Assembly: GCA_000002445.1 (NCBI GenBank)
Contig: CH464491.1
Span: 3,360,001-3,424,000 of the forward strand
Reading direction: 5' to 3'
Length of the DNA stretch: 64,000 nucleotides
DNA from: Trypanosoma brucei
Taxonomy: Eukaryota
The position numbers and the translations under genes were made by a program. Every line of letters starts with the position of its first letter. The stretch's first letter is position 1. Positions 13,501 to 52,286 of the stretch are shown piece by piece. Under the pieces are notes generated by a model that saw nothing but the letters and a program-made list of their open reading frames with translations, made no database searches and was not told the origin of the DNA.

Positions 13501-16500
13501 AAGTAGAACCACCTGGAACGCTTGAGCTGGTAAACCGCAACGGTTGAACAACCTAGCAGACCGCATAGCGTGCGACAAAAACCTCTCTTCCTCATCTCCT
13601 TCATCCAATGCTGTCCCTTGCACGGCACGCTTACCCTTTGGCATGTCCTCAGTCAAAGCTGACACGGACTCGTCAACACCTCCCTTCACTTTGCTCGCGC
13701 GGCGGGAAACCTTCCCAGACGTATCTAATGTGGCTTTCTCTTGGAGCACCTGGCATTGCTCCAACTGCAGTAGTGACATCTTCTCCAGGAAAAAATACAG
13801 CTTCGCTGTGAAAGGAACGCAAAACTGCATGATACGGGCCCTCAGCCACCGTGCAATCTGTCGTCTCCACACCCAGGCAAACCCACGGGTGAGTTGTCGC
13901 AATGTTTCCTTCTCAACAGGTGACCATTCTCCCTCCGCTGTATTACTAACAATATGTTGTCCCAGTTCATTTATAGGCGCAACCTGAGCCCTCGCATCCT
14001 CGGCCGCCAACTCTTTTGCACTCTCCAGTGCGGTCGGGTTATCAGTCGTCGATGCATCGACTGAGGAAGTACCCTTCAACTGTATGTGCAAGTACCCTTC
14101 TCGGCGGAGCCAGCTCCTCATGCTTTCAATCAATCCATTCTGGTGCTCGTTAATAAGGGTGCGGATATCCTTAAGGCGCTTTAATGTATCCAGTGCCAGC
14201 CGTCGCGCATTCACGACATCACCTTGCTCCATCAGGCTCTCTACGACATATGCAGCTGTCCGCGCGTACATGGGATGATCGCACACCTGATGGAGCCGTT
14301 CGATGGCTAGCTGCGCTGATCGACTGTGCACTGCTCGGACCACCTCCAACAACCATGGCGGAATACCTTCTAATACCACGCAGTTGGGCGTCGCAGCCAA
14401 CACCGAGTCGAGTGCTTTGTCGCATGAAGAGAAGACTTTTCTCAAGGAGCCGGCAACCTGAGCAGGCACTTTGAAAAGAATCTCCCCCAGGAGCTCCACA
14501 TATTCGATGGGTACGCAGTCGTCGACGATGTCGTCTAACATTACGTACGAGCTTCCGGGAAATGTCGAAACACCGGCAGCGCACTCAGCAGGGGCGCCGG
14601 TTGTCTGGGATGGTGCCGCAGAGCCCACCCTGGAGCCGCGGCGAAGGCGAGATGAAGTCCCGCGCGAGGCGTTTTCGCCTCGGTTGCCTGGAGCTGGTGT
14701 CCCCTGCGTACCTTCGGGAGCGCTTCCCTTTGAATTCACGACGCGCTGCACTCTGCGCGCACTGCAGCGAATTCGGTGTCTGTGACGGCGCTGCCGCAAG
14801 TTAGGAGCGTTGTATACATCGTTCCATACACGCTCAAATGCCTGAAGAAGAAGCTCATACCACCCAGCGATGGTCGAAGGAAGGTCAGATAAATCCTCAG
14901 AACAGCGCTCGGGCGACACTACCGGGGCCCCTGCAGGGGTTGTTGCTCCCGCCTGTTGCCCCACAATTTGGTCCTTGCTGTTAGTATCAGCATGCAAATT
15001 GGCGCAAGGGGCAGAACAGGGCATAGAAGCCATCCTTCGTATCGTAAGGAGTAATGCACCAAGAACGCGAACCGCCAACAACTGCACGTCCGGATCATCA
15101 GACGTGGAGGTGGGATGTAACAACAGGATCTTACACAATGTGCCGAGCGGCCGCAGCACAACAGGACAGTAATTGTCGTCCACAAGTGTTGGAAGGAGGG
15201 CGTTGAACAACTCGAAGGCACAGCGCATCATACGTCCATAATCTTTAACGCGGAACGCAAGCTCCATGACAAACCGAATTCGGTATGCGCAGCGCATATA
15301 TACAACTTGAGTCTCCTGCAACTTATAACGTTTTGGGAAAGGCACCTCGACCAACATGCTGTGCTCAGTAAAAGGCATGAGCCCTGTGGTACAAAAGTTT
15401 TTGTAAGCGTGGCCTTTCATATCGCCCACAGACATCCAAAGAATAGCCGAAACAAGCGCTCGCAGTTGCAATGGTGATGACGCAGACAAGATTTCCTCGC
15501 TCGGTTGGAACTCTAGGGGGCTTATGATGGTGTTACCATCCCCAGTTGGTGAGGGAGAGCGACGCGAACCCTCCGCGGTGACGGTAGCTGCTTCCCTAGT
15601 AATTGTACCGACGCTCCGTGACGCCGCTGAGTCTCGGAGACATGGCGCATTGCTCTTATCACACAAAAAAGCTGCGTGCAGTACATCCCTTGACTTCTCC
15701 ATCCACTCCGTAAATCCTAGCTTCCCACATATGGTCACGGCGTAGCACCAAATCATGAGAGGAGAGTACGCACTCCCCTCGCGCGGGGCCAGTTTGTCAA
15801 CCCCAAAACTCCCATTTGATCCACTCCACTCGGGACGACACAGCAGATGAAAAGCCTCTTCTAGCATTTCCCGCTGTACCTTCCGCCGGGGTTGATGGGA
15901 TGCCAAACACAACAAGACAAGCGCTAGTAGTAATGCGTCCGAACTCTCCCGCGCCCACGCAACAAGCCGTTTCCTCTCTCGCTCATTGGTATCCAAAAAC
16001 TGTGGTTCCTCCTGGATAAGTGACTTTAGAATATTCTTCTCCTTCAGCGTAACGGCGCCATAAATATTAGCCTTCGCCTGGCGCTCCTTAATTCGTGTGA
16101 CGTCCTCTCTGTGCCTTTCAATAGCTGCAAAAGATTGTTGATACAAACTAGCACACCAACACAGTTCGATTCGACAACGCATTAAATCAGTCCTTATATC
16201 ACGCACCTCCTGCTCACCACTAGCCACCAACGCAGACACATGCGACCCTAAACCTAATCTAGCACCAGTATCAACCCCTGCAACCTGTGCGGAGTTATGC
16301 ATATCCAACAGATGCGTCGCACTGGAAAGCCACCTCAACGCAATATTAATGGCAGAAATCCCTAGCATGGCGTGGTGATGCTTTTTGCGAAATACGCAGG
16401 CGGAGTCCACACCCTTTGGGAGCCCATCTACCGATCCACCAACCTCCCCTCCTTGATGCGATGTCGGTGATGCCGATCCCGCAGCTGCCTCCCCTGAAAC

Positions 16501-19491: not shown

Positions 19492-20617
19492 TGTATAACT
19501 CCTTCGCACTACTTCTGCCTGTTGTTGCCGTGCCCGCCGGCCGTTGTTGCTCTCTGATTTTCTCCTTCAGTGTCTTTCTTTTACACCACTTCCTTTGAAA
19601 CAGAGGGATATATGAGAGTGATTCGAAGGAAAAAAACAGAGGTAAGACAAATGTCATTGAAAGTTAGTGAAGGTTAAAGGAGTGAAAACAAAAAAACTAT
19701 TGATTCTAACCGCCTGGCGTCGAGGAACCAGCACGTAATGGCTAGCAGTCGTTACAAAAAAAAAAAGAAAGACAAAAAACACCTGTGGGAGTTAGTTTGT
19801 GTTGGGTCCTCCACATGTCCAACCGGTCATCAATCGGCTTTATTTTAACGGCGGGTTCAAGGGTAACAAAAAGGGAGGCAAGTGGGAGGTTTACCTCAAC
19901 TAGCCAAGTTTCTGCGGTTTACTGCTGCTGCCATGTAAAGTTGTGTCGTTCCGGAGGTCCGTTACCTTTGTTGACCGCTGACGCTCTAATATTACATTAC
20001 TGTTACGGCAACTAACGGTCACTCACATGCAACACGCGGCAATAAGGCACGACGCCAACCGAGGAAAACAGAGACACACACATATTCATTTGTCATCTTA
20101 CCCATTTATAATACCCGCCTCGGTGCCTGCTGTCCCAAGTATAAACACACGAGAGGGGCACACAGGAAGATGCTCCGTGGGCGGGCGGTGATGGTAATTT
20201 AAAAAAAAAAAGTAACAACAACAATAATAATATGGACTGAAGGTGAATAACAACAACTGTAGAAAGTTAAAATATATACACATATGTGCATATAATGGTG
20301 CAGACAGATAAAATAATGACGATAAATGCGGTATGGGGAAACGATAAGAAGACCAAAAAGGAAGAACACCCATGCCAATTAACCATATAAAAATTTTTCC
20401 CCAAACACCCTCCCCTTATGTCCCTTTACCACCCCTCCTCGTCGCTTTTTGTTTTTTTTGCCATGCGTCTTGTCGCTGTTAGCCCCCACACAAACACACA
20501 CGCCAGCTCCTTCACCCTCTTTCGCGTTTCGCCTCCCTTGACTATTACCCTTCTACCTCATTTTCTGTGAAACACATCCTACCTTAGCTCCACAAGTTTC
20601 AGCTATTCCTTACCTAC

Positions 20618-26309: not shown

Positions 26310-28517
26310 CTAAACAATGCCTGCAATGCGCTTGTAGAGCCGGGGAAGCCACCACCACATTCCAACTAGAAGCTGCAATGCCAAAGCCACAGAGCTAAAA
26401 ACTAACACAACAAACATCACTGCCCACCCGCGTCTGTCCGCGGTACCGTCACCAGAGTCATTGCCGTTACCACGGACAGCTGCTAGCCACGCGGTGAGCC
26501 CCAGTATTAGTGCTACGCAACTCGAACAAACGGCAGTCACTAGAAGCACAGGAAGCACAGTTGTGAACAGAGCAGCGGTGGGTCTGACAGTGGCCTTCCC
26601 AAAGTTGTCCCGAACCACAGTGCGGCTCAGAAAGACAGCTCCCAATGACCGTAGCAAACCCCCCACCGCGATGGCGAATGAAAACGCACAGACAGCGGCA
26701 AGGGTGGCTGTGAGTTGTTTACCGTCAAAAAAAAATGCGACTATTAGTACCATAGCAGCAGTGGCAGGCCCGAGTTCCACAAAACGTACAAATGGGCCCA
26801 TACTTGGCACAAGACACAGCAACAACAGTGCTAACGTTGACAGGAGCAACACCACAACAGGACTGATCGCAATACCGTTAGGCCAATTTCCGCTGCCATC
26901 GACAACTGGGATGTCAGTCGCTTTGAAGTGGAGACTATCTAACACCGGCAGCGTCACTAACTCAGAGTCCACAGTAAGAAGAGATACCACTGCGACAAGG
27001 CACCCACAAGCCACACTGCGGATAAAGAACGACGGATCAAGACGCCCCAAACACGAAAGGAAGTTTGTGACATAATGAGATTTACCGCACGAACATGGTC
27101 CAGGCTGCAACATGGATGGAGGTAGTAGTAAGCAAATGCCGATAGCAAGGGAAAATGACACCAATGCGAGAACGGTATGTATGATAGCAGTATAACCCGC
27201 AGCAGCAGTAGTGGCAAATGCCGGAAGAACCCCAAAAGCCACCAGACGAGACATCAACCATGCTAGGCATACCGAGAGCGCTAGAAACGGAGGTCCAGCA
27301 ACATATCCCACATCAGCACAGGTAAACAGCAACAAAGATGCAAATGAACCAACGAAACTGGCTGCCTGAACAAGTTCTCGTACAACAAAAGAGGTAGTGA
27401 CATTCAAAAGGACACCATAAAGCAGACGGAAGTCGTCCACTACCAACATGGCTGTTGAAACGAGTAACACGACGTGAGGAACTTCCCACACACCACGAAA
27501 ACAAAACACAACTAACAGCGAAGAAACTGCGATTGCATGAAACGACATGAGCTTCAGCATCATGCACTTCCCACCTAAAAGATTATCCACAAACGGATTC
27601 GTCTTAAAAACATTGTATGATTCATGGTGTAACATTAGCATGCTGATAATAAAAACGGCAAACACATGCACCACTGCACGCCTCAATCCAAATGAAGAAT
27701 TCGATTCAGAAACCAAAGCTTCGGGGACAAAAACATCGCTTGGACTACCCTGAATCAAATGAACCTCACTGCCACAAAACAAGCACCTAAACACATCACC
27801 ATCAACGAAGACGGGAAATTCCTCACTACAGTAAGAATCCCATCTGCCAGCAGCGACAAGTGGTTCGTCAACAAAACGTTCTGCAGTAACGCTATGCAAT
27901 CCATCGAGAGTACCGTAGGTCCTTTCCAATATCGAACTATCACCGTTCCCACCGAAAGGCCCTCTTCCTGCACCCAACAGCGGTTCTTGATCACCACAGT
28001 CAGCAACACAGCGGTCTCCTGTCGCCACTAATTTAGAAGAACGTAGACCACTAACAGACCTACGCACATCAGTTACCGCACTGACAACTCCAACACACCC
28101 ACAATGAAAACTATCAACCTTTTCCTTAAGCGGCACATCTCGATCCACCCCAACACAAACAGATGGCTGCATCGACAAAACTCCGTATTCAATCTCTTTA
28201 CTACCGCTTGAAAATGTACCCGCAGTAGTGAAGCGGGACATACTATGCGATGAAGAGCGTGCTGAAAATATTGTTGCGCCCCTTCGGAAATCCCTTCCAG
28301 TAGAGTGCCGTGCTAAATACTCCTCATTTTCAATCACCGCTCTACTGGTAGTTTCAGTCTTCACAAATAAATTCACACAAGAAACAGACACAACGTCATC
28401 ATCGCTATCCATCAAAATATCTCGAACGTGCTCCACAAGACTCGCACCGTCACTTGCAGCAAGGCCGTGGTCCGACCCATCTACCTCTTGGCTGCCGAAC
28501 CACGTTTTACTCTCCAT
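26310..28517 (-). CDS. Polytopic membrane protein (~735 aa): ~250-aa soluble N-terminal region followed by ~10-12 predicted TM helices, possible transporter
   Basis: The ATG is at 28517 (the track start at 28520 is a GTG). Long hydrophobic helices run from residue ~290 to the C-terminus. The first ~100 aa are shared with the chimeric gene at 29194-32949. Confidence 0.7.
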   Translation of the reverse strand: MESKTWFGSQEVDGSDHGLAASDGASLVEHVRDILMDSDDDVVSVSCVNLFVKTETTSRAVIENEEYLARHSTGRDFRRGATIFSARSSSHSMSRFTTAGTFSSGSKEIEYGVLSMQPSVCVGVDRDVPLKEKVDSFHCGCVGVVSAVTDVRRSVSGLRSSKLVATGDRCVADCGDQEPLLGAGRGPFGGNGDSSILERTYGTLDGLHSVTAERFVDEPLVAAGRWDSYCSEEFPVFVDGDVFRCLFCGSEVHLIQGSPSDVFVPEALVSESNSSFGLRRAVVHVFAVFIISMLMLHHESYNVFKTNPFVDNLLGGKCMMLKLMSFHAIAVSSLLVVFCFRGVWEVPHVVLLVSTAMLVVDDFRLLYGVLLNVTTSFVVRELVQAASFVGSFASLLLFTCADVGYVAGPPFLALSVCLAWLMSRLVAFGVLPAFATTAAAGYTAIIHTVLALVSFSLAIGICLLLPPSMLQPGPCSCGKSHYVTNFLSCLGRLDPSFFIRSVACGCLVAVVSLLTVDSELVTLPVLDSLHFKATDIPVVDGSGNWPNGIAISPVVVLLLSTLALLLLCLVPSMGPFVRFVELGPATAAMVLIVAFFFDGKQLTATLAAVCAFSFAIAVGGLLRSLGAVFLSRTVVRDNFGKATVRPTAALFTTVLPVLLVTAVCSSCVALILGLTAWLAAVRGNGNDSGDGTADRRGWAVMFVVLVFSSVALALQLLVGMWWWLPRLYKRIAGIV

Positions 28518-30450
28518 CACCTCACCGGAAATTCAACCACTGATGTTGATATTGACTCGGAGAGGTCAGCACACAGCTATTACCGGTGCCTTCTTATCCT
28601 TTCCTATCCAGAACCCAAAACGCCCCCACCTCTTTTTCACTAATCCTTGCTCGTTACTATGACTACGCTGCACAAAGAAATACCGTTTGCAAGCCTGACA
28701 AATGGGGAAAAGGGCTACAGAGTGGAGCACTACAGTGGAAAATACGTGTGCGGTATAAGCACACAGCGACAGGAAGACACAACAGCCTCGGTCAGTTCGT
28801 TACAAACCCCAGAAGCTCAGAGATGCGGTACCTTCATACCCAACAGGTATGCACAAGGCAGCAACATACAGAAACGAGTTGAAGAAAGGAAAAAAGGAAA
28901 AAAGGAAAAAAGTAAGCAAACAATTACATACTTGGGAAGTGCTATGCCTCTTCAAAATACAGAAACGTGCTCGGCGCACCACCAATATCATATTAGACAA
29001 GAATGCCGTGCAGCGCCGGCCGCAACGCTCCAAATCACTTTAACGTCCACACAACGAAATACCGGAATGACGCTGAAAATGGTAGTAGCGCTTGGAGCGA
29101 AGCGCCCACCTACGCTATTTCCCGAAAACAAGCACAAATACAGGCAGTAATCTGCAATAGCTCAATGAAGGCGGTAAAGCACATGAGATACAGCTAACGG
29201 AGTTCGTAACGGCCAAACATAATCGATCCAACAGCAAGGACGAGCATCCCCACCGCAGAGGCTGAGAACGCAGCAGCCTCCTTCCACTCGGATATACCTC
29301 CCTCCTGCACGTACGCTGCAGCAACAGCGGGAGAGCAGCGCTGCAGCGCAGCAAGCATTGCCTCATGCCGATTCTGGCGCTGCTTGTGCATGTCGTCCAA
29401 AAGTTTCCGCACGTTGAATAACATTAAACGCACCCTGTCTTGCATCTGTTGAAGAAGGTCATTCGGGGCGGAAACTCCACTCGACAGGACCCGTGACTCA
29501 CCCGAACCTTCGCAGTGCTCGTGGCGCGGTGACACCATCAAACAATCCAGCTCCTCCCCGACCGCGTCGATTCGGGCTTGCAGTAAACGAAGATTCTCAT
29601 CTTGCCGTTTCCATGTCCCCTCAGCCCTCATTACACGGCGCTTATAATCACTTGCAGCAGCCTGCAGCTCTGTGCGCGCCCCATAGTTATCCCCTGAGTC
29701 GCTGTGCCTCTCAGCTAGTTGCATCACACGCTTGAAATGCCGAGCCTCCTTTATGCACGGAGCGATCTGTGAAACAACCTTGCCACAGCGCTGAATATCC
29801 CTTTCGATTGCCTTAATCTTCCTCAGTAGCAGCACGATTGGAGCACCCAGCGATTGCAGAGCAGAGATGTTATAGCTTTCCGCATTCTCCCCGGCACCCT
29901 CATCCGAGTTCGTTGTATGACAAAATTCACCATCCACCGCACGTTTGCTCCGTCTCCTCCGCTGGGAGGGTCGGTCATGAAGAACAGTGCCAAGTTCAGA
30001 ATGTCCGTGAACAGCACAGTCAAACTCAAAATAATCTTCCGCCAGTCCGCTCTCAGCACCCACGACAGATGTATCATAGGAACTATCAAGGGCATCCTCC
30101 AAACTACATGACCCCTCACCTTCTGAAAAATTAGCAAGCTTTGCCTGCGCAAAATCAACGTCAACAGAACAAGATTTTTCGTTCGGGGAACATGTGAGCT
30201 TTACCACATTTTTCGAAATGTCCCTCCCTGCATTTATTTCATTCAACTGCTTCATTAGTACAGCGTTTTCTTCCTTGAGTTTTCCAAGTTCAGTATGAAA
30301 AGGGTCACTAAACTTGGCACCACCCTCCATTTCATTAAGGTTTTCAGGCGCCTCTTTCGAATAATGCTCCTCAGCAAGTTGCTTTTTCAGTTCCTTCTCC
30401 AGTGCTGCCTTAGAACCAGCCACATCACTCAGTTGCTTCCTCAGTTCCCT
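28196..30450 (-). repeat. Segmental duplication copy 1. It contains the 5' end of the membrane-protein gene, a 670-bp intergenic region, and the 3' domain of the coiled-coil repeat gene. It is duplicated at 32630-34890 (period 4434 bp).
   Basis: 28196-28360 equals 32630-32795. 28430-29190 equals 32870-33625. 29194-30400 equals 33629-34840. A short divergent patch lies at 28360-28430 versus 32795-32870. Confidence 0.85.
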
Positions 30451-32949
30451 CAGTTCCTTCTCGAGTGATGATTTGGAACCAGCCACATCACTCAGTTGCT
30501 TCCTCAGTTCCTTCAGTTCCTTCTCGAGTGATGATTTGGAATCAGCCACATCACTCAGTTGCTTCCTCAGTTCCCTCAGTTCCTTCTCGAGTGATGATTT
30601 GGAATCAGCCACATCACTCGGTTGCTTCCTCAGTTCCTTCAGTTCCTTCTCGAGTGATGATTTGGAACCAGCCACATCACTCAGTTGCTTCCTCAGTTCC
30701 TTCAGTTCCTTCTCGAGTGATGATTTGGAATCAGCCACATCACTCGGTTGCTTCCTCAGTTCCTTCAGTTCCTTCTCGAGTGATGATTTGGAACCAGTCA
30801 CATCACTCAGTTGCTTCCTCAGTTCCTTCAGTTCCTTCTCGAGTGATGATTTGGAACCAGTCACATCACTCAGTTGCTTCCTCAGTTCCTTCAGTTCCTT
30901 CTCGAGTGATGATTTGGAACCAGTCACATCACTCAGTTGCTTCTTCAGTTCCTTCAGTTCCTTCTCGAGTGATGATTTGGAACCAGCCACATCACTCAGT
31001 TGCTTCCTCAGTTCCTTCAGTTCCTTCTCGAGTGATGATTTGGAATCAGCCACATCACTCAGTTGCTTCCCCAGTTCCTTCTCGAGTGATGATTTGGAAT
31101 CAGCCACATCACTCAGTTGCTTCCTCAGTTCCTTCAGTTCCTTCTCGAGTGATGATTTGGAACCAGTCACATCACTCAGTTGCTTCCTCAGTTCCTTCAG
31201 TTCCTTCTCGAGTGATGATTTGGAACCAGCCACATCACTCGGTTGCTTCCCCAGTTCCTTCTCGAGTGATGATTTGGAACCAGTCACATCACTCAGTTGC
31301 TTCCTCAGTTCCTTCAGTTCCTTCTCGAGTGATGATTTGGAACCAGTCACATCACTCAGTTGCTTCCCCAGTTCCTTCAGTTCCTTCTCGAGTGATGATT
31401 TGGAACCAGCCACATCACTCAGTTGCTTCCTCAGTTCCTTCAGTTCCTTCTCGAGTGATGATTTGGAATCAGCCACATCACTCAGTTGCTTCCCCAGCTC
31501 CTTCTCGAGTGATGATTTGGAACCAGCCACATCACATAGTTGCTTCCTCAGCTCCTTCAGCTCCTTCTCGAGTGATGATTTGGAACCAGTCACATCACTC
31601 AGTTGCTTCCTCAGTTCCTTCTCCAGTGCTGCCTTAGAACCAGCCACATCACTCAGTTGCTTCCTCAGCTCCTTCAGCTCCTTCTCGAGTGATGATTTGG
31701 AACCAGTCACATCACTCAGTTGCTTCCTCAGTTCCTTCAGTTCCTTCTCCAGTGCTGCCTTAGAACCAGCCACATCACTCAGTTGCTTCCTCAGCTCCTT
31801 CAGCTCCTTCTCGAGTGATGATTTGGAATCAGCCACATCACTCAGTTGCTTCCTCAGCTCCTTCAGCTCCTTCTCGAGTGATGATTTGGAATCAGCCACA
31901 TCACTCGGTTGCTTCTTCAGCTCTCTCTCTATCAATGTATTAGAATCATTCACAGCACCTAGCTGCTTTTTTGTTTCCTTCAGTTCGTTTTCTATTAGAA
32001 CCTTGGTGTCATTCACATCAGCAAGTTGTTTCCTTAGTTCCTTCAGTTCTTTTTCAATTAAAGCCTTGGAGTCATTTACATCACTTAGTTGCCTCCTCAG
32101 TTCCTTCAGTTCCTTCTCCAGTGATGATTTGGAATCAGTCACATCACTCAGTTGCTTCCTCAGCTCCTTCAGTTCATTTTCCATTAACGCCTTAGAATCA
32201 TTCACCCCACCGAGTTGCTTCTTTATACTGTCACTGCTTTCACCCTTTAGTTGACACTCAGGGCCACTTGATTTCTTTGTTTTTGTCTCAACTATCAGTT
32301 CATCCAGCTCCTTCTCGAGTGACGCTTTAGAATCAGTTACTTCCAGTAGTTGCTGTTTCAACTCCTTAAGTTCTTTTTCCATTAACGCCTTCGATTCGCT
32401 GAGGTTCCTTAATTGTTCTTCAATGTTGGAAAGGGAAGATGATTTCTGCTGATCTCCCTCTGTGTTGTGGCATCGTTCCTTTAAACTGTCCACTTTTCTG
32501 TGCATATCAAATTCCACTGCAGAAGTATCAGTAGCTTCGCTTCTACGGGCGCTTCCTTTCGAGTTCTCTCTTGTGCCGAACCTCTCATCCACTTGAGAGT
32601 TTGCATCAAGAGCACCGCATTCAATTGTCTGTCTGCCGCTTGAAAATGCACCCGCAGTAGTGAAGCGGGACATACTATGCGATGAAGAGCGTGCTGAAAA
32701 TATTGTTGCGCCCCTTCGGAAATCCCTTCCAGTAGAGTGCCGTGCTAAATACTCCTCATTTTCAATCACCGCTCTACTGATAGTTTCAGTCTTCACAAAA
32801 AGATCCTCCCAGGATGTGGAAACAGAATCATTTTCATCCGAACCCCTCGTTTTCCTCTTTTGCTCCACAAGACTCGCACCGTCACTTGCAGCAAGGCCGT
32901 GGTCCGACCCATCTACCTCTTGGCTGCCGAACCACGTTTTACTCTCCAT
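29194..32949 (-). CDS. Chimeric coiled-coil repeat protein, ~1251 aa. Its N-terminal ~100 aa are identical or similar to the membrane-protein N-terminus. It then has degenerate and near-perfect 21-aa repeats and a C-terminal domain ending in a hydrophobic tail anchor.
   Basis: A continuous ORF. The ATG at 32949 is in the same context as 28517. The repeat core is (S)LEKELKELRKQLSDV[AT][GD]SKS. The C-terminus (...AVGMLVLAVGSIMFGRYELR) is a predicted TM tail anchor. Confidence 0.65.
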   Translation of the reverse strand: MESKTWFGSQEVDGSDHGLAASDGASLVEQKRKTRGSDENDSVSTSWEDLFVKTETISRAVIENEEYLARHSTGRDFRRGATIFSARSSSHSMSRFTTAGAFSSGRQTIECGALDANSQVDERFGTRENSKGSARRSEATDTSAVEFDMHRKVDSLKERCHNTEGDQQKSSSLSNIEEQLRNLSESKALMEKELKELKQQLLEVTDSKASLEKELDELIVETKTKKSSGPECQLKGESSDSIKKQLGGVNDSKALMENELKELRKQLSDVTDSKSSLEKELKELRRQLSDVNDSKALIEKELKELRKQLADVNDTKVLIENELKETKKQLGAVNDSNTLIERELKKQPSDVADSKSSLEKELKELRKQLSDVADSKSSLEKELKELRKQLSDVAGSKAALEKELKELRKQLSDVTGSKSSLEKELKELRKQLSDVAGSKAALEKELRKQLSDVTGSKSSLEKELKELRKQLCDVAGSKSSLEKELGKQLSDVADSKSSLEKELKELRKQLSDVAGSKSSLEKELKELGKQLSDVTGSKSSLEKELKELRKQLSDVTGSKSSLEKELGKQPSDVAGSKSSLEKELKELRKQLSDVTGSKSSLEKELKELRKQLSDVADSKSSLEKELGKQLSDVADSKSSLEKELKELRKQLSDVAGSKSSLEKELKELKKQLSDVTGSKSSLEKELKELRKQLSDVTGSKSSLEKELKELRKQLSDVTGSKSSLEKELKELRKQPSDVADSKSSLEKELKELRKQLSDVAGSKSSLEKELKELRKQPSDVADSKSSLEKELRELRKQLSDVADSKSSLEKELKELRKQLSDVAGSKSSLEKELRELRKQLSDVAGSKAALEKELKKQLAEEHYSKEAPENLNEMEGGAKFSDPFHTELGKLKEENAVLMKQLNEINAGRDISKNVVKLTCSPNEKSCSVDVDFAQAKLANFSEGEGSCSLEDALDSSYDTSVVGAESGLAEDYFEFDCAVHGHSELGTVLHDRPSQRRRRSKRAVDGEFCHTTNSDEGAGENAESYNISALQSLGAPIVLLLRKIKAIERDIQRCGKVVSQIAPCIKEARHFKRVMQLAERHSDSGDNYGARTELQAAASDYKRRVMRAEGTWKRQDENLRLLQARIDAVGEELDCLMVSPRHEHCEGSGESRVLSSGVSAPNDLLQQMQDRVRLMLFNVRKLLDDMHKQRQNRHEAMLAALQRCSPAVAAAYVQEGGISEWKEAAAFSASAVGMLVLAVGSIMFGRYELR
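30370..31915 (-). repeat. 63-nt tandem repeat array (~24 units, some 54-nt variants) encoding 21-aa coiled-coil repeats. Degenerate units continue to ~32420.
   Basis: The unit is ccagccacatcactcagttgcttcctcagttccttcagttccttctcgagtgatgatttggaa, read on the plus strand. Confidence 0.9.
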
Positions 32950-34890
32950 CACCTCACCGGAAATTCAACCACTGATGTTGATATTGACTCGGAGAGGTCA
33001 GCACACAGCTATTACCGGTGCCTTCTTATCCTTTCCTATCCAGAACCCAAAACGCCCCCACCTCTTTTTCACTAATCCTTGCTCGTTACTATGACTACGC
33101 TGCACAAAGAAATACCGTTTGCAAGCCTGACAAATGGGGAAAAGGGCTACAGAGTGGAGCACTACAGTGGAAAATACGTGTGCGGTATAAGCACACAGCG
33201 ACAGGAAGACACAACAGCCTCGGTCAGTTCGTTACAAACCCCAGAAGCTCAGAGATGCGGTACCTTCATACCCAACAGGTATGCACAAGGCAGCAACATA
33301 CAGAAACGAGTTGAAGAAGAAAGGAAAAAAGGAAAAAAGGAAAAAAGTAAGCAAACAATTACATACTCGGGAAGTGCTATACCTCTTCAAAATACAGAAA
33401 CGTGGTCGGCGCACCACCAATATCATATTAGACAAGAATGCCGTGCAGCGCCGGCCGCAACGCTCCAAATCACTTTAACGTCCACACAACGAAATACCGG
33501 AATGACGCTGAAAATGGTAGTAGCGCTTGGAGCGAAGCGCCCACCTACGCTATTTCCCGAAAACAAGCACAAATACAGGCAGTAATCTGCAATAGCTCAA
33601 TGAAGGCGGTAAAGCACATGAGATACAGCTAACGGAGTTCGTAACGTTTATATACAGTAGATCCAACAGCAAGGACGAGCATCCCCACCGCAGAGGCTGA
33701 GAACGCAGCAGCCTCCTTCCACTCGGATATACCTCCCTCCTGCACGTACGCTGCAGCAACAGCGGGAGAGCAGCGCTGCAGCGCAGCAAGCATTGCCTCA
33801 TGCCGATTCTGGCGCTGCTTGTGCATGTCGTCCAAAAGTTTCCGCACGTTGAATAACATTAAACGCACCCTGTCTTGCATCTGTTGAAGAAGGTCATTCG
33901 GGGCGGAAACTCCACTCGACAGGACCCGTGACTCACCCGAACCTTCGCAGTGCTCGTGGCGCGGTGACACCATCAAACAATCCAGCTCCTCCCCGACCGC
34001 GTCGATTCGGGCTTGCAGTAAACGAAGATTCTCATCTTGCCGTTTCCATGTCCCCTCAGCCCTCATTACACGGCGCTTATAATCACTTGCAGCAGCCTGC
34101 AGCTCTGTGCGCGCCCCATAGTTATCCCCTGAGTCGCTGTGCCTCTCAGCTAGTTGCATCACACGCTTGAAATGCCGAGCCTCCTTTATGCACGGAGCGA
34201 TCTGTGAAACAACCTTGCCACAGCGCTGAATATCCCTTTCGATTGCCTTAATCTTCCTCAGTAGCAGCACGATTGGAGCACCCAGCGATTGCAGAGCAGA
34301 GATGTTATAGCTTTCCGCATTCTCCCCGGCACCCTCATCCGAGTTCGTTGTATGACAAAATTCACCATCCACCGCACGTTTGCTCCGTCTCCTCCGCTGG
34401 GAGGGTCGGTCATGAAGAACAGTGCCAAGTTCAGAATGTCCGTGAACAGCACAGTCAAACTCAAAATAATCTTCCGCCAGTCCGCTCTCAGCACCCACGA
34501 CAGATGTATCATAGGAACTATCAAGGGAATCCTCCAAACTACATGACCCCTCACCTTCTGAAAAATTAGCAAGCTTTGCCTGCGCAAAATCAACGTCAGC
34601 AGAACAAGATTTTTCGTTCGGGGAACATGTGAGCTTTACCACATTTTTCGAAATGTCCCTCCCTGCATTTATTTCATTCAACTGCTTCATTAGTACAGCG
34701 TTTTCTTCATTGAGTTTTCCAAGTTCAGTATGAAAAGGGTCACTAAACTTGGCACCACCCTCCATTTCATTAAGGTTTTCAGGCGCCTCTTTCGAATAAT
34801 GCTCCTCGGCAAGTTGCTTTTTCAGTTCCTTCTCCAGTGCTGCCTTAGAACCATTAACATCACTCAGTTGCTTCCTCAGTTCCTTCAGTT
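32630..34890 (-). repeat. Segmental duplication copy 2 (partner of 28196-30450)
   Basis: See copy 1. Near-identical over ~2.2 kb except one ~70-bp divergent patch. Confidence 0.85.
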
Positions 34891-37800
34891 CCTTCTCGAG
34901 TGATGATTTGGAACCAGCCACATCACTCGGTTGCTTCCTCAGTTCCTTAAGTTCCTTCTCGAGTGATGATTTGGAACCAGTCACATCACTCAGTTGCTTC
35001 TTCAGTTCCTTCAGTTCCTTCTCGAGTGATGATTTGGAACCAGTCACATCACTCAGTTGCTTCCTCAGCTCCTTCTCCTTCTCGAGTGATGATTTGGAAC
35101 CAGTCACATCACTCAGTTGCTTCTTCAGTTCCTTCTCTCGAGTGATGATTTGGAACCAGCCACATCACTCAGTTGCTTCCTCAGTTCCTTCAGTTCCTTC
35201 TCGAGTGATGATTTGGAATCAGCCACATCACTCAGTTGCTTCCCCAGTTCCTTCTCGAGTGATGATTTGGAACCAGCCACATCACTCAGTTGCTTCCTCA
35301 GTTCCTTCAGTTCCTTCTCGAGTGATGATTTGGAACCAGTCACATCACTCAGTTGCTTCCTCAGTTCCTTCAGTTCCTTCTCGAGTGATGATTTGGAACC
35401 AGTCACATCACTCAGTTGCTTCTTCAGTTCCTTCAGTTCCTTCTCGAGTGATGATTTGGAACCAGCCACATCACTCAGTTGCTTCCTCAGTTCCTTCAGT
35501 TCCTTCTCAAGTGATGATTTGGAACCAGTCACATCACTCAGTTGCTTCTTCAGTTCCTTCAGTTCCTTCTCGAGTGATGATTTGGAACCAGCCACATCAC
35601 TCAGTTGCTTCTTCAGTTCCTTCAGTTCCTTCTCGAGTGATGATTTGGAACCAGCCACATCACTCGGTTGCTTCCCCAGTTCCTTCTCGAGTGATGATTT
35701 GGAACCAGCCACATCACTCAGTTGCTTCCTCAGTTCCTTCAGTTCCTTCTCGAGTGATGATTTGGAACCAGTCACATCACTCAGTTGCTTCCTCAGTTCC
35801 TTCTCGAGTGATGATTTGGAATCAGCCACATCACTCGGTTGCTTCCTCAGTTCCTTCAGTTCCTTCTCGAGTGATGATTTGGAACCAGCCACATCACTCA
35901 GTTGCTTCCTCAGTTCATCCGGCTCCTTCTCGAGTGATGATTTGGAATCAGCCACATCACTCAATTGCTTCCTCAGTTCCTTCAGTTCCTTCTCGAGTGA
36001 TGATTTGGAACCAGCCACATCACTCAGTTGCTTCCTCAGTTCCTTCAGTTCCTTCTCGAGTGATGATTTGGAATCAGCCACATCACTCAGTTGCTTCCTC
36101 AGTTCCTTCAGTTCCTTCTCGAGTGATGATTTGGAACCAGCCACATCACTCAGTTGCTTCCTCAGTTCCTTCAGTTCCTTCTCGAGTGACGATTTGGAAT
36201 CAGCCACATCACTCAGTTGCTTCCTCAGTTCCTTCAGTTCCTTCTCGAGTGATGATTTGGAACCAGCCACATCACTCAGTTGCTTCCTCAGTTCCTTCTC
36301 GAGTGATGATTTGGAATCAGCCACATCACTCAGTTGCTTCCTCAGTTCCTTCAGTTCCTTCTCGAGTGATGATTTGGAACCAGCCACATCACTCAGTTGC
36401 TTCCTCAGTTCCTTCTCGAGTGACGATTTGGAACCAGCCACATCACTCAGTTGCTTCCTCAGTTCCTTCAGTTCCTTCTCGAGTGATGATTTGGAACCAG
36501 CCACATCACTCAGTTGCTTCCTCAGTTCCTTCTCGAGTGACGATTTGGAACCAGCCACATCACTCAGTTGCTTCTTCAGTTCATCCGGCTCCTTCTCGAG
36601 TGATGATTTGGAACCAGCCACATCACTCAGTTGCTTCCTCAGTTCCTTCTCGAGTGACGATTTGGAATCAGCCACATCACTCAGTTGCTTCCTCAGTTCC
36701 TTCAGTTCCTTCTCGAGTGATGATTTGGAACCAGTCACATCACTCGGTTGCTTCCTCAGTTCCTTCAGTTCCTTCTCGAGTGATGATTTGGAATCAGCCA
36801 CATCACTCGGTTGCTTCCTCAGTTCCTTCAGTTCCTTCTCGAGTGATGATTTGGAACCAGCCACATCACTCAGTTGCTTCCTCAGTTCCTTCTCGAGTGA
36901 TGATTTGGAATCAGCCACATCACTCAGTTGCTTCCTCAGTTCCTTCAGTTCCTTCTCGAGTGATGATTTGGAACCAGCCACATCACTCGGTTGCTTCCTC
37001 AGTTCCTTCAGTTCCTTCTCGAGTGATGATTTGGAATCAGTCACATCACTCAGTTGCTTCCTCAGTTCCTTCAGTTCTTTTTCCATCAATGCCCTCGACT
37101 CTGTCACCTTGTTCAGCTGCTTTTTTAGCTCCTTTTCTAGAAGCGTCATTGATCCAGTCATCTCGCTGAGTTGCTCGTTTAGTCCCCTCATTTCTCCTTT
37201 CAATGACGCCTCTAATTTTTCTCTGTTCATTTCTTGCTTTTCATTTTTCTTTTTGTCTTGAAGGTGGTTTTGTGACATCTGTTCATCGCATTGCGCCGTA
37301 TGGAAAATTGCCGTTGAAGTATTGCCAGACTGCCTTATTTTTTCCTCACAGTTTTTTGTGATGCTGTGCAGCTGTCGACTGCTATCTCTCGTTTGGTTAA
37401 CATCTTTGTGTGACTGAGCAATTGGTTGCATCCGCTGCCGTTTCGAATCTGCATCGGCGCACGATGATTGCTGTGGAGAGTCTTCATTTCTAAGGCGGTG
37501 GTGGCGCACCTGCAGTGGACTTTTGTCGAGGTGGCCCCACTGTGATCGGGTAATTTTACCCTCGTCGCGCTTTGCACTGTCGTGCACCGGGGAACTACTT
37601 TCACCTTGATGGATATAACGTGCACGATAGGGCGTACTGGTTCTGATTGTTGACCTCGCTGAAGGGCTAGATCGCGGAGATGGGCGGTGGAGCCCAGAAC
37701 CTGGGGATCCGTTTCTGCACAAAACGGTAGTGAACAGATTACATAGCCTTGCGTACTGGTCGCTGGTCAGGTCAACAGTGTCCTGAGAACGTTGTGACCG

Positions 37801-39024
37801 ACCGATGGTACAGAGCACACTTGAGTGTAAGATACGTTGGTGCTGCCGAGTTAACGATCGGACCCATGTCTTGGCAGCAAATCTTTCCACCGACACAAAT
37901 TCATCGTAGGCCCGCGGCGGAGTACATGCACGCTCGCTTGGATGAACATGATCCATTCTCGGTGCTCGAGCCCCATAGCGGCTTGGGCTCTTCCATCGGG
38001 AACAAGCTACCCCACGGTGATCAGTGTTTTCAAGGCGTTCGTAGTTATTCCATAATGAACGTATTTCTCGTGTAATGACATCCAACCGCTTGCGCACTTG
38101 TTCTACACGGTGTTGAAGATGAGTCGCGTCCTCGCCGGACTGTTGCACATCGCGTAAGTGGTGCTCGTGCCAATTCACGCAAATCATCCTCATATTAGCC
38201 ACGACCCACTGTTGCACGGAGCCAAGTGCATGACTCCCTTTGAGGGCTTCCTCGTACGTAAAGTTCAGAGAGTTAGTGTACTGTGAAACGAGTTCGTCGT
38301 GGCACTCCTTGCTGATGGTCAGCGGGTCAAACTGCATCAGCACCTGCAGTATCCCAGCACGGTGCAGAAAAGGCTGCATCTCACTCCATGTGCGCCTCCT
38401 CTCACCAAGCAGTACCATTACTAATCCCATGACACGCACGACAATATCCGGGGGTGTTCGGTACGACACAAGCTCTCTCCAATGCCGAGCATCGACCTGG
38501 CGCACCACGTGGCAGGCGTGCCTAAGCTGCATCTCAGCCTCTCGCTTCTTCGTGGCAACATCCAGATTTTTCATAGAAAGCTCACGATATAATTTTGCGC
38601 GCTCTTGCGAAAGCCGAACCGCTTCGTCTCTGTGCTGAATCAGCTGGGACTGTAGAGGAGGAATCCGTAGCAGAAGTTCGCGTCCCTCCTCCGTCGTTAC
38701 GGCAGCCAGGGCTTTTGTCAGCGGGCAGGCACCTCCCTCCTGATCACTTGGTACCAGAGGTTCTATGTACAAAGAGCGGCAAACAACATCGCTGCACACA
38801 ATTCCTAGGCTGCAACGCCACATGCCAGAAGATCGCTCAATGTATTCATACGCCACAATGTCGTCAGGGGCGACCTGAGGAAAGGAGTCCTGCCGCCACT
38901 GGAACTCCTCCAACCCCGATAAAAATTCACCATCGTCGCCCACGGCAAATAGTGGTGCTATAGTAAGGATTGAAGGTTGGTCACTGCCTGCCATTGTGCC
39001 TTCTTCTGGTATATTTACCTCCAT
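33629..39024 (-). CDS. Giant tail-anchored coiled-coil repeat protein (~1800 aa if contiguous). It has a ~690-aa N-terminal globular/coiled region, ~36 x 21-aa repeats and a C-terminal domain with a TM anchor. It is interrupted by a +2 frameshift at ~35125-35140 (the ORF track splits it into 33629-35107 and 35125-39096).
   Basis: The ATG at 39024 gives MEVNIPEEGTM.... The track start at 39096 is a TTG. The C-terminal 400 aa are near-identical to the C-terminus of 29194-32949. One repeat unit at 35101-35162 reads ttccttctctcgag instead of ttccttctcgag (an extra tc). Confidence 0.6.
34805..37075 (-). repeat. 63-nt tandem repeat array (~36 units, including 54-nt variants lacking the KEL codons). 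Degenerate units continue to ~37260.
   Basis: Same unit as the 30370-31915 array. Variable sites a/g, c/t and t/c give D/G, A/T, R/K/G and L/P alternatives. Confidence 0.9.
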
Positions 39025-40343
39025 TACGTAGCCTCCCCCTCTCTGTACTTCTAGCTGTTTAGGTTGTTTTCCCCTTTCACACACTCGATCACACAACCCA
39101 CACCCTTGACTATCCTCGCCGGTCGGTTGTACGACTTTCAGAATCCTTCTTCCCCAGCTTCACCACAAATGATAGACTTCACCAACTGTGTCTGACGGCC
39201 GTGTTCACCCACACGCTTAACTCTTCACAGGTAAAAAAACACTACCAACACCTTCGATACTGTTTTTACTACCCACTCTTTCCTTTACCCTCCCCTCGTT
39301 CACTTTACAAAGTCGCTCAACTTCGCGCACAAGCAAATAAAATACAAATGTATGTATATATTTATATTTATGTATGCGTATATATGTATATCCTCTGCTC
39401 TCTTTCGTTAACCCACTCTTCCCTCACTCACTTTCCCGATACGTGCTGTACTTTTTGTTTTGTTTAGTGGAGCGGCACAGGTCACCTCCTCAGAAATAAA
39501 AAATAAAATAATGACACTAATAATAACGACCGTCTGTGATGTTCAGACGATTTTCTTTCACTTGATTTAGCTATGTAAGTGTTCGATAACAACTAAAACC
39601 TTTCTTTGTCCACTCGCTTTTTTCTTGTCAACGGTACAACGGAATATGAGAAAATAAAAAAAAATAACACGGTACACACTTTCGCTCCTTACTTTCTTTT
39701 GTTGATGTTGGTGTTGGCACTGGTTACTTCCACCTGTCTTGTTTCGTTTAGCTGTTCTGGGATCGAGTCCTTTTAAAATGGAAGAGAGAATAACACTCCT
39801 TTGCCTTTAAGTTGTTGTTTTTTTTTTTTCGTCGATCCTTATCTTTCCTTTTCTCGCTTCCACAGCTTCCCTTTGTCACTAATAACGACTGACAACGCAG
39901 TGAAGTCACAGGCTACCTTTATCGGCTCCCTCAGCGGGTGAGAAATCAAGAGATGTGAGAGAGAATGGGGATGTTGGTGCATTGCTTCACGGCATACAAA
40001 AAATAAAAATCGTAGGGGAGATAAGCAAAGGGGAAAACAGGCGCGTCATGAGCGAAATGAGCCTGTGATTTAAAATTTAAAAAAACGGCCAACGAAGACA
40101 GCACCCTCCGCACTGCTACATGTGTCCATTTCAAACAGAAACAGGCTAACAAAGGATAAAACGATGAGACACCGGCAGGGTTAATCCTGCACACGCCCTT
40201 GTGCCGCTCCATACCACCAACTCCGCTATCTGCCACCTTCATTGTAGTACACGTTACGCACCCACCAACAGCAGTGTCAGAAGAGGAAGAAAAGATAGGA
40301 GAAGAAATGTAATGGTAAATTCTCTCAGCACAAATTCATTACA

Positions 40344-52255: not shown

Positions 52256-52286
<31 letters not shown>

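What the first reader, a model, noticed from the sequence alone, without database searches (positions are those of the whole stretch)
35041..35162. Two aberrant repeat units in a row, one with an in-frame 3-nt loss and one with a +2 (tc) insertion that frameshifts the giant gene
The unit at 35041-35100 is 60 nt (cagctccttctccttctcgag replaces cagttccttcagttccttctcgag). The next unit (35101-35162) reads ttccttctctcgag, with an extra tc in a ctctc slippage context. This splits what is otherwise one ~1800-aa ORF into 33629-35107 and 35125-39024. The defect could be a sequencing or assembly error in a 2.2-kb array of 63-nt units. It could be a genuine pseudogenising slippage. Or it could mark the breakpoint where the segmental duplication was joined. 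The 54-nt units (missing the KEL codons) scattered through both arrays show that the array is actively gaining and losing whole units.
Basis: seen in the sequence. Interest (0 to 1): 0.5.

Follow-up and report, generated by a model that had tools for sequence, protein, structure and literature searches.

The report
Frame break in trypanosome repeat gene
Two neighbouring 63-base repeat units in a Trypanosoma brucei reference gene have lost 3 and 7 bases; the second loss splits a gene that is intact in relatives, and it could equally be a sequencing-consensus error or a real mutation, so the finding is ordinary.

Summary
The window is T. brucei brucei TREU927 chromosome 11. A minus-strand gene ("B", 39024 to 33629) carries a 2.26-kb array of 63- and 54-nt units. 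Two adjacent units, 60 nt and 56 nt (not 62), are the only irregular ones among about 100 unit spacings counted here and in two relatives.

The 56-nt unit breaks the frame into ORFs 35125-39024 and 33629-35107. Removing 2 nt gives one 1797-aa ORF; restoring 7 nt gives 1800 aa.

An eight-unit block of paralogue A (30673-31167) matches B 34856-35340 with 6 substitutions and exactly two gaps of 3 and 7 nt. The lesions therefore read better as deletions from normal 63-nt units than as a +2 insertion.

The duplication-breakpoint idea fails: the duplication boundaries lie near 28183/32615, not 35135.

B is intact in T. b. equiperdum IVM-t1 and T. congolense. It encodes a dynein-type stalk and microtubule-binding domain, a coiled-coil array and a C-terminal membrane anchor, so the break would separate the binding domain from the anchor.

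No reads were available, so artefact against genuine mutation stays open. I lean slightly to a consensus artefact (0.5 against 0.42). Interest is low.

The parts
35045..35104 (-). 60-nt aberrant repeat unit. It is a 63-nt unit lacking 3 nt after CAGCTCCTTC (+ strand 35067-35076). The frame is kept and it encodes LEKE-KELRKQ.
35105..35160 (-). 56-nt aberrant repeat unit. It is a 63-nt unit lacking 7 nt (AGTTCCT) after CAGTTCCTTC (+ strand 35127-35136), or equivalently a 54-nt unit plus TC. This unit causes the frame break.
35125..39024 (-). Upstream ORF of gene B (1299 aa from the first ATG). It holds the N-terminal dynein-type stalk/MTBD and most of the array, ends ...SSLERRN*, and has no hydrophobic anchor.
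33629..35107 (-). Downstream ORF of gene B (492 codons). It holds the last 4.5 units, the conserved C-terminal domain and the tail anchor. Its first ATG is at 34765.
34821..37077 (-). Array B: about 37 units of 63 or 54 nt (21 or 18 aa, LSDVxGSKSSLEKELKELRKQ).
37975..38727 (-). Dynein-type coiled-coil stalk plus microtubule-binding domain of B (residues about 100-350).
   Evidence: Pfam PF12777 at 26.9 bits. phmmer against PDB 5ayh_A, E = 7.9e-11. AF2 model with pLDDT 81, and the Foldseek top hits are all dynein stalk/MTBD.
33653..33709 (-). Single hydrophobic segment AAFSASAVGMLVLAVGSTV, 7 residues from the C-terminus (tail anchor).
   Evidence: Kyte-Doolittle 19-residue mean 1.80
29194..32949 (-). 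Paralogue A, an intact 1251-aa chimera. Its first ~105 aa come from the N-terminus of gene C, followed by a repeat array and the same C-terminal domain and anchor as B. It is probably Tb927.11.12880 / POMP17.
30673..31167 (-). Eight-unit block of array A that is the closest match to B 34856-35340. It has normal 63-nt units opposite both aberrant units.
32615..34830 (.). Upper copy of the non-array part of the tandem segmental duplication. The lower copy is 28183-30395 (97.3% identity, offset 4432). The junction is near 32615.
26310..28517 (-). Gene C, a multi-pass membrane protein (EAN80236.1). Its 5' 334 nt were duplicated to make the N-terminus of A.

Best explanation
Gene B is a real, normally uninterrupted gene of about 1800 aa. 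It has an N-terminal dynein-type stalk and microtubule-binding domain, about 37 coiled-coil units of 21 or 18 aa, a Trypanosoma-specific C-terminal domain and a tail anchor.

The two adjacent irregular units are ordinary 63-nt units that have lost 3 and 7 nt. Both losses lie at the same place, the first copy of the duplicated 9-nt KEL motif.

I think these two small losses are most likely defects of the TREU927 reference consensus rather than of the organism's DNA. The reference is Sanger-era and collapses the two alleles. Such defects arise where reads from units or alleles with and without the 9-nt motif, or from the nearly identical paralogue A, were piled up together. On this reading the true gene has an intact frame.

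- **Shown:** the anatomy of the lesions, the intact orthologues, the position of the duplication boundaries and the domain architecture.
- **Inferred:** that the lesion is an artefact.
For: - **Uniqueness and adjacency:** the two lesions are the only irregular units in about 100 unit spacings and they sit side by side. If independent, adjacency has p about 0.05. A single local cause explains this better than two separate mutations.
- **A nested series:** both lesions are partial losses (3 of 9 and 7 of 9 nt) starting at the same boundary as the common 9-nt loss that makes 54-nt units. That is the pattern expected if 63- and 54-nt forms were mixed in an alignment.
- **Confusable paralogue:** paralogue A has a block matching at 479 of 485 aligned bases, with normal units at both positions. 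The flank next to the array differs between A and B at only four codons. Reads from the two copies are therefore easy to confuse.
- **Intact orthologues:** the B orthologue is one open frame in T. b. equiperdum IVM-t1 (L003 nt 1144-5361). T. congolense has N-terminal stalk and C-terminal anchor in one 1076-aa protein.
- **Fragile locus:** short-read and older assemblies of this locus break or have N gaps in the array. This is seen in T. equiperdum OVI, DAL972 and T. conorhini.
- **Unplaced copies:** a published orthogroup table lists two unplaced TREU927 chromosome-11 copies (Tb11.v5.0365 and 0366) beside Tb927.11.12870 and 12880 (PMC10361982 supplement). The locus was therefore not resolved into one sequence.
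- **Precedent:** Cosentino et al. 2021 (PMC8445201) report that internal repeats of different length between alleles cause false frameshifts in collapsed T. brucei assemblies. They also report that TREU927 has at least one wrongly split gene (Tb927.2.5860/5870).
- **Structural oddity:** a 20-aa unit (one residue lost) is seen nowhere else. The 21- and 18-aa units keep or 'stutter' the heptad pattern (my inference from general coiled-coil knowledge).
Against: - No raw reads, second haplotype or independent TREU927 assembly could be examined, so nothing here tests the claim directly.
- Finished Sanger sequence has a low indel error rate.
- The site lies only about 300-340 nt from unique flank, within reach of single anchored reads.
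- The TC/GA run (CTCGAGAGAAGG) is a plausible site for real dinucleotide slippage.
- A column-wise consensus artefact would not necessarily produce two clean contiguous deletions.
- The lack of further decay downstream does not count against a real mutation. A and B are homogenised by gene conversion, with 4 codon differences within a strain against 11-13 between strains.
- The literature suggests the upstream ORF has long been treated as a protein without a C-terminal transmembrane segment (Tb11.52.0008; PMC2931517). So the split has stood in the annotation since at least 2010.
Confidence: 0.5

Rival explanations
1. The lesion is a genuine mutation in TREU927, on one or both haplotypes. Small deletions, or a GA/TC dinucleotide slippage, in two neighbouring units truncate B after 1299 aa. 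The dynein-type microtubule-binding end is then made without the C-terminal domain and membrane anchor. The downstream 492-codon frame is silent. Gene conversion from paralogue A keeps it looking intact, and A may also buffer the loss.
For: - The frame break is unambiguous in the deposited sequence.
- The (GA)2 to (GA)3 context is slippage-prone.
- The arrays are demonstrably unstable between strains.
- Gene conversion between A and B is shown. It would mask decay and could also import odd variants: the 60-nt unit is the only B unit with the CAGCTCC variant, which is otherwise seen in A.
- Allele-specific premature stops do exist in T. brucei (PMC8445201).
- There is no pyrimidine tract between the stop and the next ATG on the coding strand, so the downstream piece is unlikely to be a separate mRNA.
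- Tb927.11.12890 and 12900 are absent from two proteomic tables that list their neighbours. This fits a pseudogene annotation, but it also fits non-detection.
Against: - Two rare, non-unit-sized lesions in adjacent units need either one complex event or coincidence (p about 0.05).
- The 7-nt deletion has no flanking microhomology (my inspection).
- The orthologues are intact, and the MTBD is well conserved at 57-58% identity to T. congolense with long invariant runs. This argues that the gene is under selection in the lineage.
Confidence: 0.42
2. The aberrant units mark the joint where the segmental duplication that made paralogue A was sealed.
For: - Only proximity: the site lies inside the duplicated region.
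- The irregular units sit where the A and B unit orders re-synchronise. B has 1 unit before the shared block and A has 5.
Against: - The homology boundaries are at 28183/32615, with a period of 4432 nt. The upper end therefore falls near 37046, at the N-terminal edge of array B.
- The tandem junction is the fusion of C's N-terminus to the repeat region in A.
- Homology between A and B continues on both sides of the lesions without interruption.
- Both strains carry both copies, and IVM-t1 has no lesion.
Confidence: 0.03
3. The break is a functional recoding site (programmed +1/-2 frameshift) or a deliberate split into two products.
For: None beyond the existence of two long ORFs.
Against: - There is no X_XXY_YYZ slippery heptamer near the stop.
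- The lesion is absent from IVM-t1, DAL972 (as far as assembled) and T. congolense.
- The coding strand has no trans-splice-type pyrimidine tract upstream of the downstream ATG.
Confidence: 0.01

Closest known systems
False frameshifts in collapsed or reference T. brucei assemblies (Cosentino, Brink & Siegel 2021, PMC8445201), including the wrongly split TREU927 pair Tb927.2.5860/5870
   Same: A conserved gene with an internal repeat array is split into two adjacent ORFs in one assembly and is whole in a related assembly. The paper names allelic repeat-length differences as a cause.
   Different: The main cases in that paper are PacBio indel errors in Lister 427. Here the sequence is Sanger-era TREU927, and I could not show that the alleles differ. 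This locus is not in the paper's supplementary files as held here.
Unitary pseudogene or allele-specific premature stop by small indel in a tandem-repeat gene
   Same: A single frame-breaking lesion in a gene that is intact in sister taxa, within a slippage-prone repeat context.
   Different: There are no second disabling lesions and no independent confirmation. Decay cannot be assessed because of gene conversion with paralogue A.
Dynein heavy chain stalk and microtubule-binding domain (Pfam PF12777; PDB 5AYH, 3WUQ, 6RZB)
   Same: B residues about 100-340 match in sequence (E = 7.9e-11) and in predicted fold, a coiled-coil hairpin with a small helical MTBD at the tip.
   Different: No AAA+ ring, linker or tail was detected. 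Pfam finds only the MT domain in the 665-aa N-terminal part that was scanned, and the rest of the protein is repeat array and C-terminal domain. B is a stand-alone stalk/MTBD fused to a repeat coiled coil and a membrane anchor, not a motor.
POMP17 / Tb927.11.12880 (listed as mitochondrial in PMC6686227; classed 'microtubule structures 2' in PMC10361982)
   Same: By gene order and orthogroup this is most probably paralogue A. It shares the repeats, C-terminal domain and tail anchor with B.
   Different: A lacks the MTBD and instead carries the N-terminus of the neighbouring membrane-protein gene C. The listed mass of 123.3 kDa does not match the 139.0 kDa of the longest ATG ORF. The assignment is therefore inferred, not proven.

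Membership tests
Dynein heavy chain | Stalk coiled coil plus MTBD (PF12777) above the curated threshold | tested here: met
   26.9 bits against a cut-off of 24. phmmer against the PDB dynein stalk gives E = 7.9e-11. Foldseek top 50 hits are all dynein stalk/MTBD.
Dynein heavy chain | Ring of six AAA+ modules, linker and tail | tested here: not met
   Pfam finds only the MT domain in the 665-aa N-terminal part. The rest of the protein is 21-aa repeats and a Trypanosoma-specific C-terminal domain. B is not a dynein, only a stalk/MTBD relative.
Tail-anchored membrane protein | A single hydrophobic segment within about 30 residues of the C-terminus and no other transmembrane segment or signal peptide | tested here: met
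   Kyte-Doolittle 19-mer maximum of 1.80 (B) and 2.01 (A), ending 7 and 6 residues from the C-terminus. The upstream ORF maximum is 1.36. No dedicated transmembrane predictor was available.
Mitochondrial outer-membrane protein (POMP17) | Identity with Tb927.11.12880 and experimental localisation | tested here: inconclusive
   The gene-order inference rests on CARP2 = Tb927.11.12860 and on the orthogroup that holds 12870 and 12880. One table labels the gene POMP17/Mito and another places it in 'microtubule structures 2'. The listed mass does not fit.
Unitary pseudogene | A frame-disrupting lesion in a gene that is intact in relatives | tested here: met
   lesion; intact orthologues.
Unitary pseudogene | The lesion is present in the organism's DNA (independent reads or assemblies) | not testable with these tools
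The other assemblies break in the array.
Unitary pseudogene | Relaxed constraint downstream (further lesions, excess non-synonymous change) | tested here: inconclusive
   There are no further lesions in 492 codons. However, A and B evolve in concert, with 2 synonymous and 7 non-synonymous differences of which 5 are the copy-specific tail, so the test has no power.
Programmed ribosomal frameshift site | A slippery heptamer and conservation of the shift in relatives | tested here: not met
   There is no X_XXY_YYZ motif in the 86 nt scanned around the stop. The lesion motifs are absent from all related loci.
Segmental-duplication junction | Homology between the copies ends at the site | tested here: not met
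   The boundaries are at 28183/32615. Homology between A and B is continuous across the lesions.

The most novel reading that the evidence does not exclude
The frame break is real in TREU927, and B is a passive tether between microtubules and an organelle. On this reading a motor-less dynein stalk/MTBD is held at a variable distance, set by the number of coiled-coil units, from a tail anchor in the mitochondrial outer membrane. TREU927 would then carry a natural allele that uncouples the microtubule-binding end from the anchor, while the chimeric paralogue A supplies only the anchored half.
Probability: 0.2. Interest if true: 0.5.

Novelty: already known. Interest (0 to 1): 0.17.

Why it matters
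As a frameshift, this matters mainly for annotation hygiene. If it is an artefact, two gene models in the most-used T. brucei reference should be merged into one ~1800-aa protein. From gene order these are probably Tb927.11.12890 and 12900, though I did not see the annotation itself. Proteomic, tagging and RNAi data that currently map only to paralogue A would then need re-reading.

The gene is more interesting than the lesion. It is a stand-alone dynein-type microtubule-binding stalk joined by a long repeat coiled coil to a tail anchor. The paralogue has been reported both as a mitochondrial outer-membrane protein and in a microtubule-associated proteomic class. I found no paper describing this architecture.

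Tried and rejected
- **Protein searches:** three word-index searches returned only T. congolense, T. conorhini and T. equiperdum proteins. They missed T. brucei proteins that demonstrably exist, for example the 1098-aa IVM-t1 protein of L003. They could not tell me how TREU927 annotates B.
- **Exact-sequence look-ups** of A, both B ORFs and alternative starts found nothing.
- **TREU927 contigs:** The look-up of encoding contigs does not return them, so the reference annotation and the unplaced Tb11.v5 contigs could not be read.
- **Other assemblies:** the T. equiperdum OVI contigs stop 1-2 units into the arrays. DAL972 has a 100-N gap running from the array into gene C. T. conorhini has N gaps. 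None of them covers the equivalent of 35135.
- **Literature:** searches for Tb927.11.12890 and 12900 gave no hit in main text or in three supplement sets. The Niemann 2013 POMP paper is not held.
- **Promoter/terminator scan**: it uses bacterial models and is irrelevant to a trypanosome.
- **Rejected on evidence:** the duplication breakpoint, programmed frameshifting, and the idea that the downstream ORF is a separately expressed gene (no pyrimidine tract).
- **'54-nt unit + TC':** considered and not excluded mutationally, but it is less parsimonious than '63-nt unit minus 7' given the paralogous block.
Full report
**Source of the window.** All large ORFs lie on the minus strand. Exact-sequence look-ups match T. 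brucei brucei TREU927 chromosome 11 proteins EAN80232, 80234, 80236, 80238, 80240 and 80244 on a 5,261,801-bp record.

Gene order on the minus strand is as follows:
- DEAD-box helicase mt-LAF2 (45942-43681)
- a 430-aa protein (43163-41871)
- prefoldin (40985-40344)
- gene B (39024-33629)
- gene A (32949-29194)
- membrane protein C (28517-26310)
- DUF4464/CARP2
- oligopeptidase B

CARP2 is Tb927.11.12860 (PMC3811416). An orthogroup table puts Tb927.11.12870 and 12880 together (PMC10361982 supplement). So C is probably 12870, A is probably 12880 (called POMP17 in PMC6686227), and B is probably 12890/12900. These assignments are inferred from order. I could not read the annotation itself.

**Checking the observation.** TRF reports a 63-nt array at 34821-37077 with 37 copies, and a second at 30386-32175. 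Parsing every unit shows only 63- and 54-nt units apart from two neighbours: 35045-35104 (60 nt) and 35105-35160 (56 nt).
The second is 56 nt, so its stated end (35162) is 6 nt too far.
- The 60-nt unit keeps the frame but loses one Leu.
- After the 56-nt unit the upstream frame ends ...SSLERRN* at 35125.
- The ORFs are 35125-39096 (first ATG at 39024) and 33629-35107.
- Taking out 2 nt gives one 1797-aa ORF. Putting back 7 nt gives 1800 aa.
- A census of CTCGAG spacings in the window and in two relatives finds 63 or 54 nt (or sums of them) everywhere else, about 100 spacings in all. The lesion motifs are unique to the window.

**What the lesions are.** B 34856-35340 aligns to A 30673-31167 over eight units with 6 substitutions and exactly two gaps of 3 nt and 7 nt. 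Normal 63-nt units lie opposite both aberrant units, and the 54-nt unit is in register downstream.
- This is the best non-self placement of the block anywhere in either array.
- Both gaps start directly after CAG[C/T]TCCTTC. That is the first copy of the tandemly duplicated 9-nt motif (AGTTCCTTC on the + strand, coding KEL).
- Complete loss of that motif gives the common 54-nt unit. Losses of 0, 3, 7 and 9 nt therefore form a nested series anchored at one boundary.
It is less parsimonious given the paralogous block. The frame consequence is the same.

**The duplication.**
- The first ~105 residues of A are the N-terminus of the downstream gene C.
- blastn gives 28183-30395 matching 32615-34830 at 97.3% identity with an offset of 4432.
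- This is a tandem duplication of about 4.4 kb. It starts 334 nt inside C and runs through the intergenic region, the 3' part of B and the array. Its junction is near 32615 and its upper end is near the N-terminal edge of array B.
- The frame break at 35125-35136 is 2.5 kb from the junction, and homology between A and B runs straight through it. The breakpoint idea is rejected.
- T. conorhini has a single copy between prefoldin and the C orthologue.
- T. congolense has two proteins with the C-terminal domain.
- The C-terminal 1182 nt of A and B differ at 4 codons within TREU927, plus a copy-specific tail at codons 384-388. Orthologues between TREU927 and IVM-t1 differ at 11-13 codons. The copies are therefore homogenised by gene conversion. 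The clean downstream frame says nothing about whether B is a pseudogene.

**What gene B is.**
- The N-terminal part matches Pfam PF12777, the dynein microtubule-binding stalk, at 26.9 bits against a cut-off of 24.
- Residues about 100-350 hit the mouse cytoplasmic dynein stalk structure 5AYH at E = 7.9e-11.
- An AlphaFold model has mean pLDDT 81. Its best PDB matches are all dynein stalks or MTBDs, for example 6RZB chain C with TM 0.76 on the target.
- There is no AAA+ ring, so this is not a motor.
- The array encodes 21-aa units, which equal three heptads. The 18-aa units amount to a three-residue 'stutter' (general coiled-coil knowledge).
- The C-terminal domain has relatives only in Trypanosoma: 7 representatives among 1.84 billion, one of which is a weak plant coiled-coil hit.
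- The protein ends in one hydrophobic segment 6-7 residues from the C-terminus.
- T. congolense TCIL3000_11_13290 (1076 aa) has stalk and anchor in one protein.
- In T. b. equiperdum IVM-t1 the B orthologue is one open frame of 1405 codons with about 17 units (L003 1144-5361).
- The intact architecture is therefore ancestral. The break would detach the microtubule-binding end from the anchor.
- A 2010 paper treats Tb11.52.0008 as a coiled-coil protein without a C-terminal transmembrane segment (PMC2931517). This fits the truncated upstream ORF.

**Artefact or mutation.** This cannot be settled here, because no TREU927 reads or second assembly could be reached. Every other assembly breaks in the array except IVM-t1.

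In favour of an artefact:
- The lesions are two unique, adjacent, non-unit-sized changes, with chance adjacency of 0.054.
- They form a nested relation to the 9-nt indel.
- The paralogue nearby is nearly identical.
- Unplaced TREU927 copies of the locus exist.
- There is published precedent for false frameshifts from allelic repeat-length differences, and for a wrongly split TREU927 gene (PMC8445201).

In favour of a real lesion:
- Finished Sanger sequence has low indel error (background knowledge).
- The site is close to unique flank.
- The GA run is slippage-prone.
- The arrays are clearly unstable between strains.
- Allele-specific premature stops are known in T. brucei.

I put the artefact at 0.5, a genuine lesion in at least one haplotype at 0.42, the breakpoint idea at 0.03 and recoding at 0.01.

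The downstream ORF is unlikely to be expressed on its own. The coding strand between the stop and the next ATG (34765) has no pyrimidine tract of the kind seen in the three neighbouring intergenic regions.

**Verdict.** A frame break in a long tandem-repeat gene of an old reference assembly is an ordinary thing, and a read-level check is simple. The gene's architecture is the more notable by-product.

Noticed in passing
window 29194-32949 (-) and 26310-28517 (-): Gene A is a chimera. Its first ~105 aa are the N-terminus of the neighbouring multi-pass membrane-protein gene C, fused to the repeat array and tail-anchored C-terminal domain of B. It was made by a ~4.4-kb tandem duplication (28183-30395 matching 32615-34830).
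   Followed up: yes
window 37975-38727 (-): Gene B carries a stand-alone dynein-type stalk and microtubule-binding domain without any AAA+ motor, joined by the repeat coiled coil to a tail anchor. I found no paper describing this architecture. The paralogue is reported both as mitochondrial (POMP17) and in a 'microtubule structures' proteomic class.
   Followed up: partly
window 33629-34810 vs 29194-30375; L003 4180-5361 vs 8148-9329: Concerted evolution. The C-terminal 1182 nt of A and B differ at 4 codons within a strain but at 11-13 between TREU927 and IVM-t1. A copy-specific tail (STVYK vs SIMFG, codons 384-388) is kept in both strains, so the conversion tracts stop just before it.
   Followed up: yes
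window 35890-35952 and 36556-36618: Two units of array B carry the variant TTCATCCGGCTCC (LEKEPDELRKQ / LEKEPDELKKQ), which puts a proline in the coiled-coil unit. They lie 666 nt apart, which hints at a higher-order repeat.
   Followed up: no
window 31897-32615 (-): The N-terminal side of array A holds degenerate, older-looking 21-aa units (LSDVNDSKALIEKELKELRKQ, LADVNDTKVLIENELKETKKQ and others) that are not found in B. In IVM-t1 this block is duplicated inside A.
   Followed up: partly
window 28881-28912 and 33316-33347: (GAAAAAAG)4 on the + strand appears in both copies of the duplicated intergenic region. On the coding strand these are the 32-35-nt pyrimidine tracts upstream of C and A, which are likely trans-splicing signals.
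   Followed up: partly
window 560-1582 (-) and 2373-3395 (-): A tandem pair of ribonucleotide reductase small-chain genes, with 328 of 341 aligned positions identical.
   Followed up: partly
window 34908-37169 (+), 35117-37261 (+), 30465-31637 (+), 30473-32254 (+): Long antisense ORFs across both arrays. They are a by-product of stop-free repeat units, not genes.
   Followed up: partly
window 7600-19509 (-): A giant 3969-aa ORF with a CFAP54 N-terminal domain (flagellar central-pair protein family).
   Followed up: partly
L004 9544-9643 (T. b. gambiense DAL972) and L006 3267-3808, 4201-4372 (T. conorhini): Reference assemblies of relatives have N gaps exactly in this array. In DAL972 the gap swallows the end of B, all of A and the start of C, so C is annotated as a 443-aa fragment.
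   Followed up: yes
L003 1144-5361 (T. b. equiperdum IVM-t1, CM010682.1): The intact 1361-aa B orthologue is not among the genes called in that record, although the frame is open from ATG to stop.
   Followed up: partly
window 3981-4005 and 52256-52282: Two (CA)n microsatellites of 12-13 repeats.
   Followed up: no
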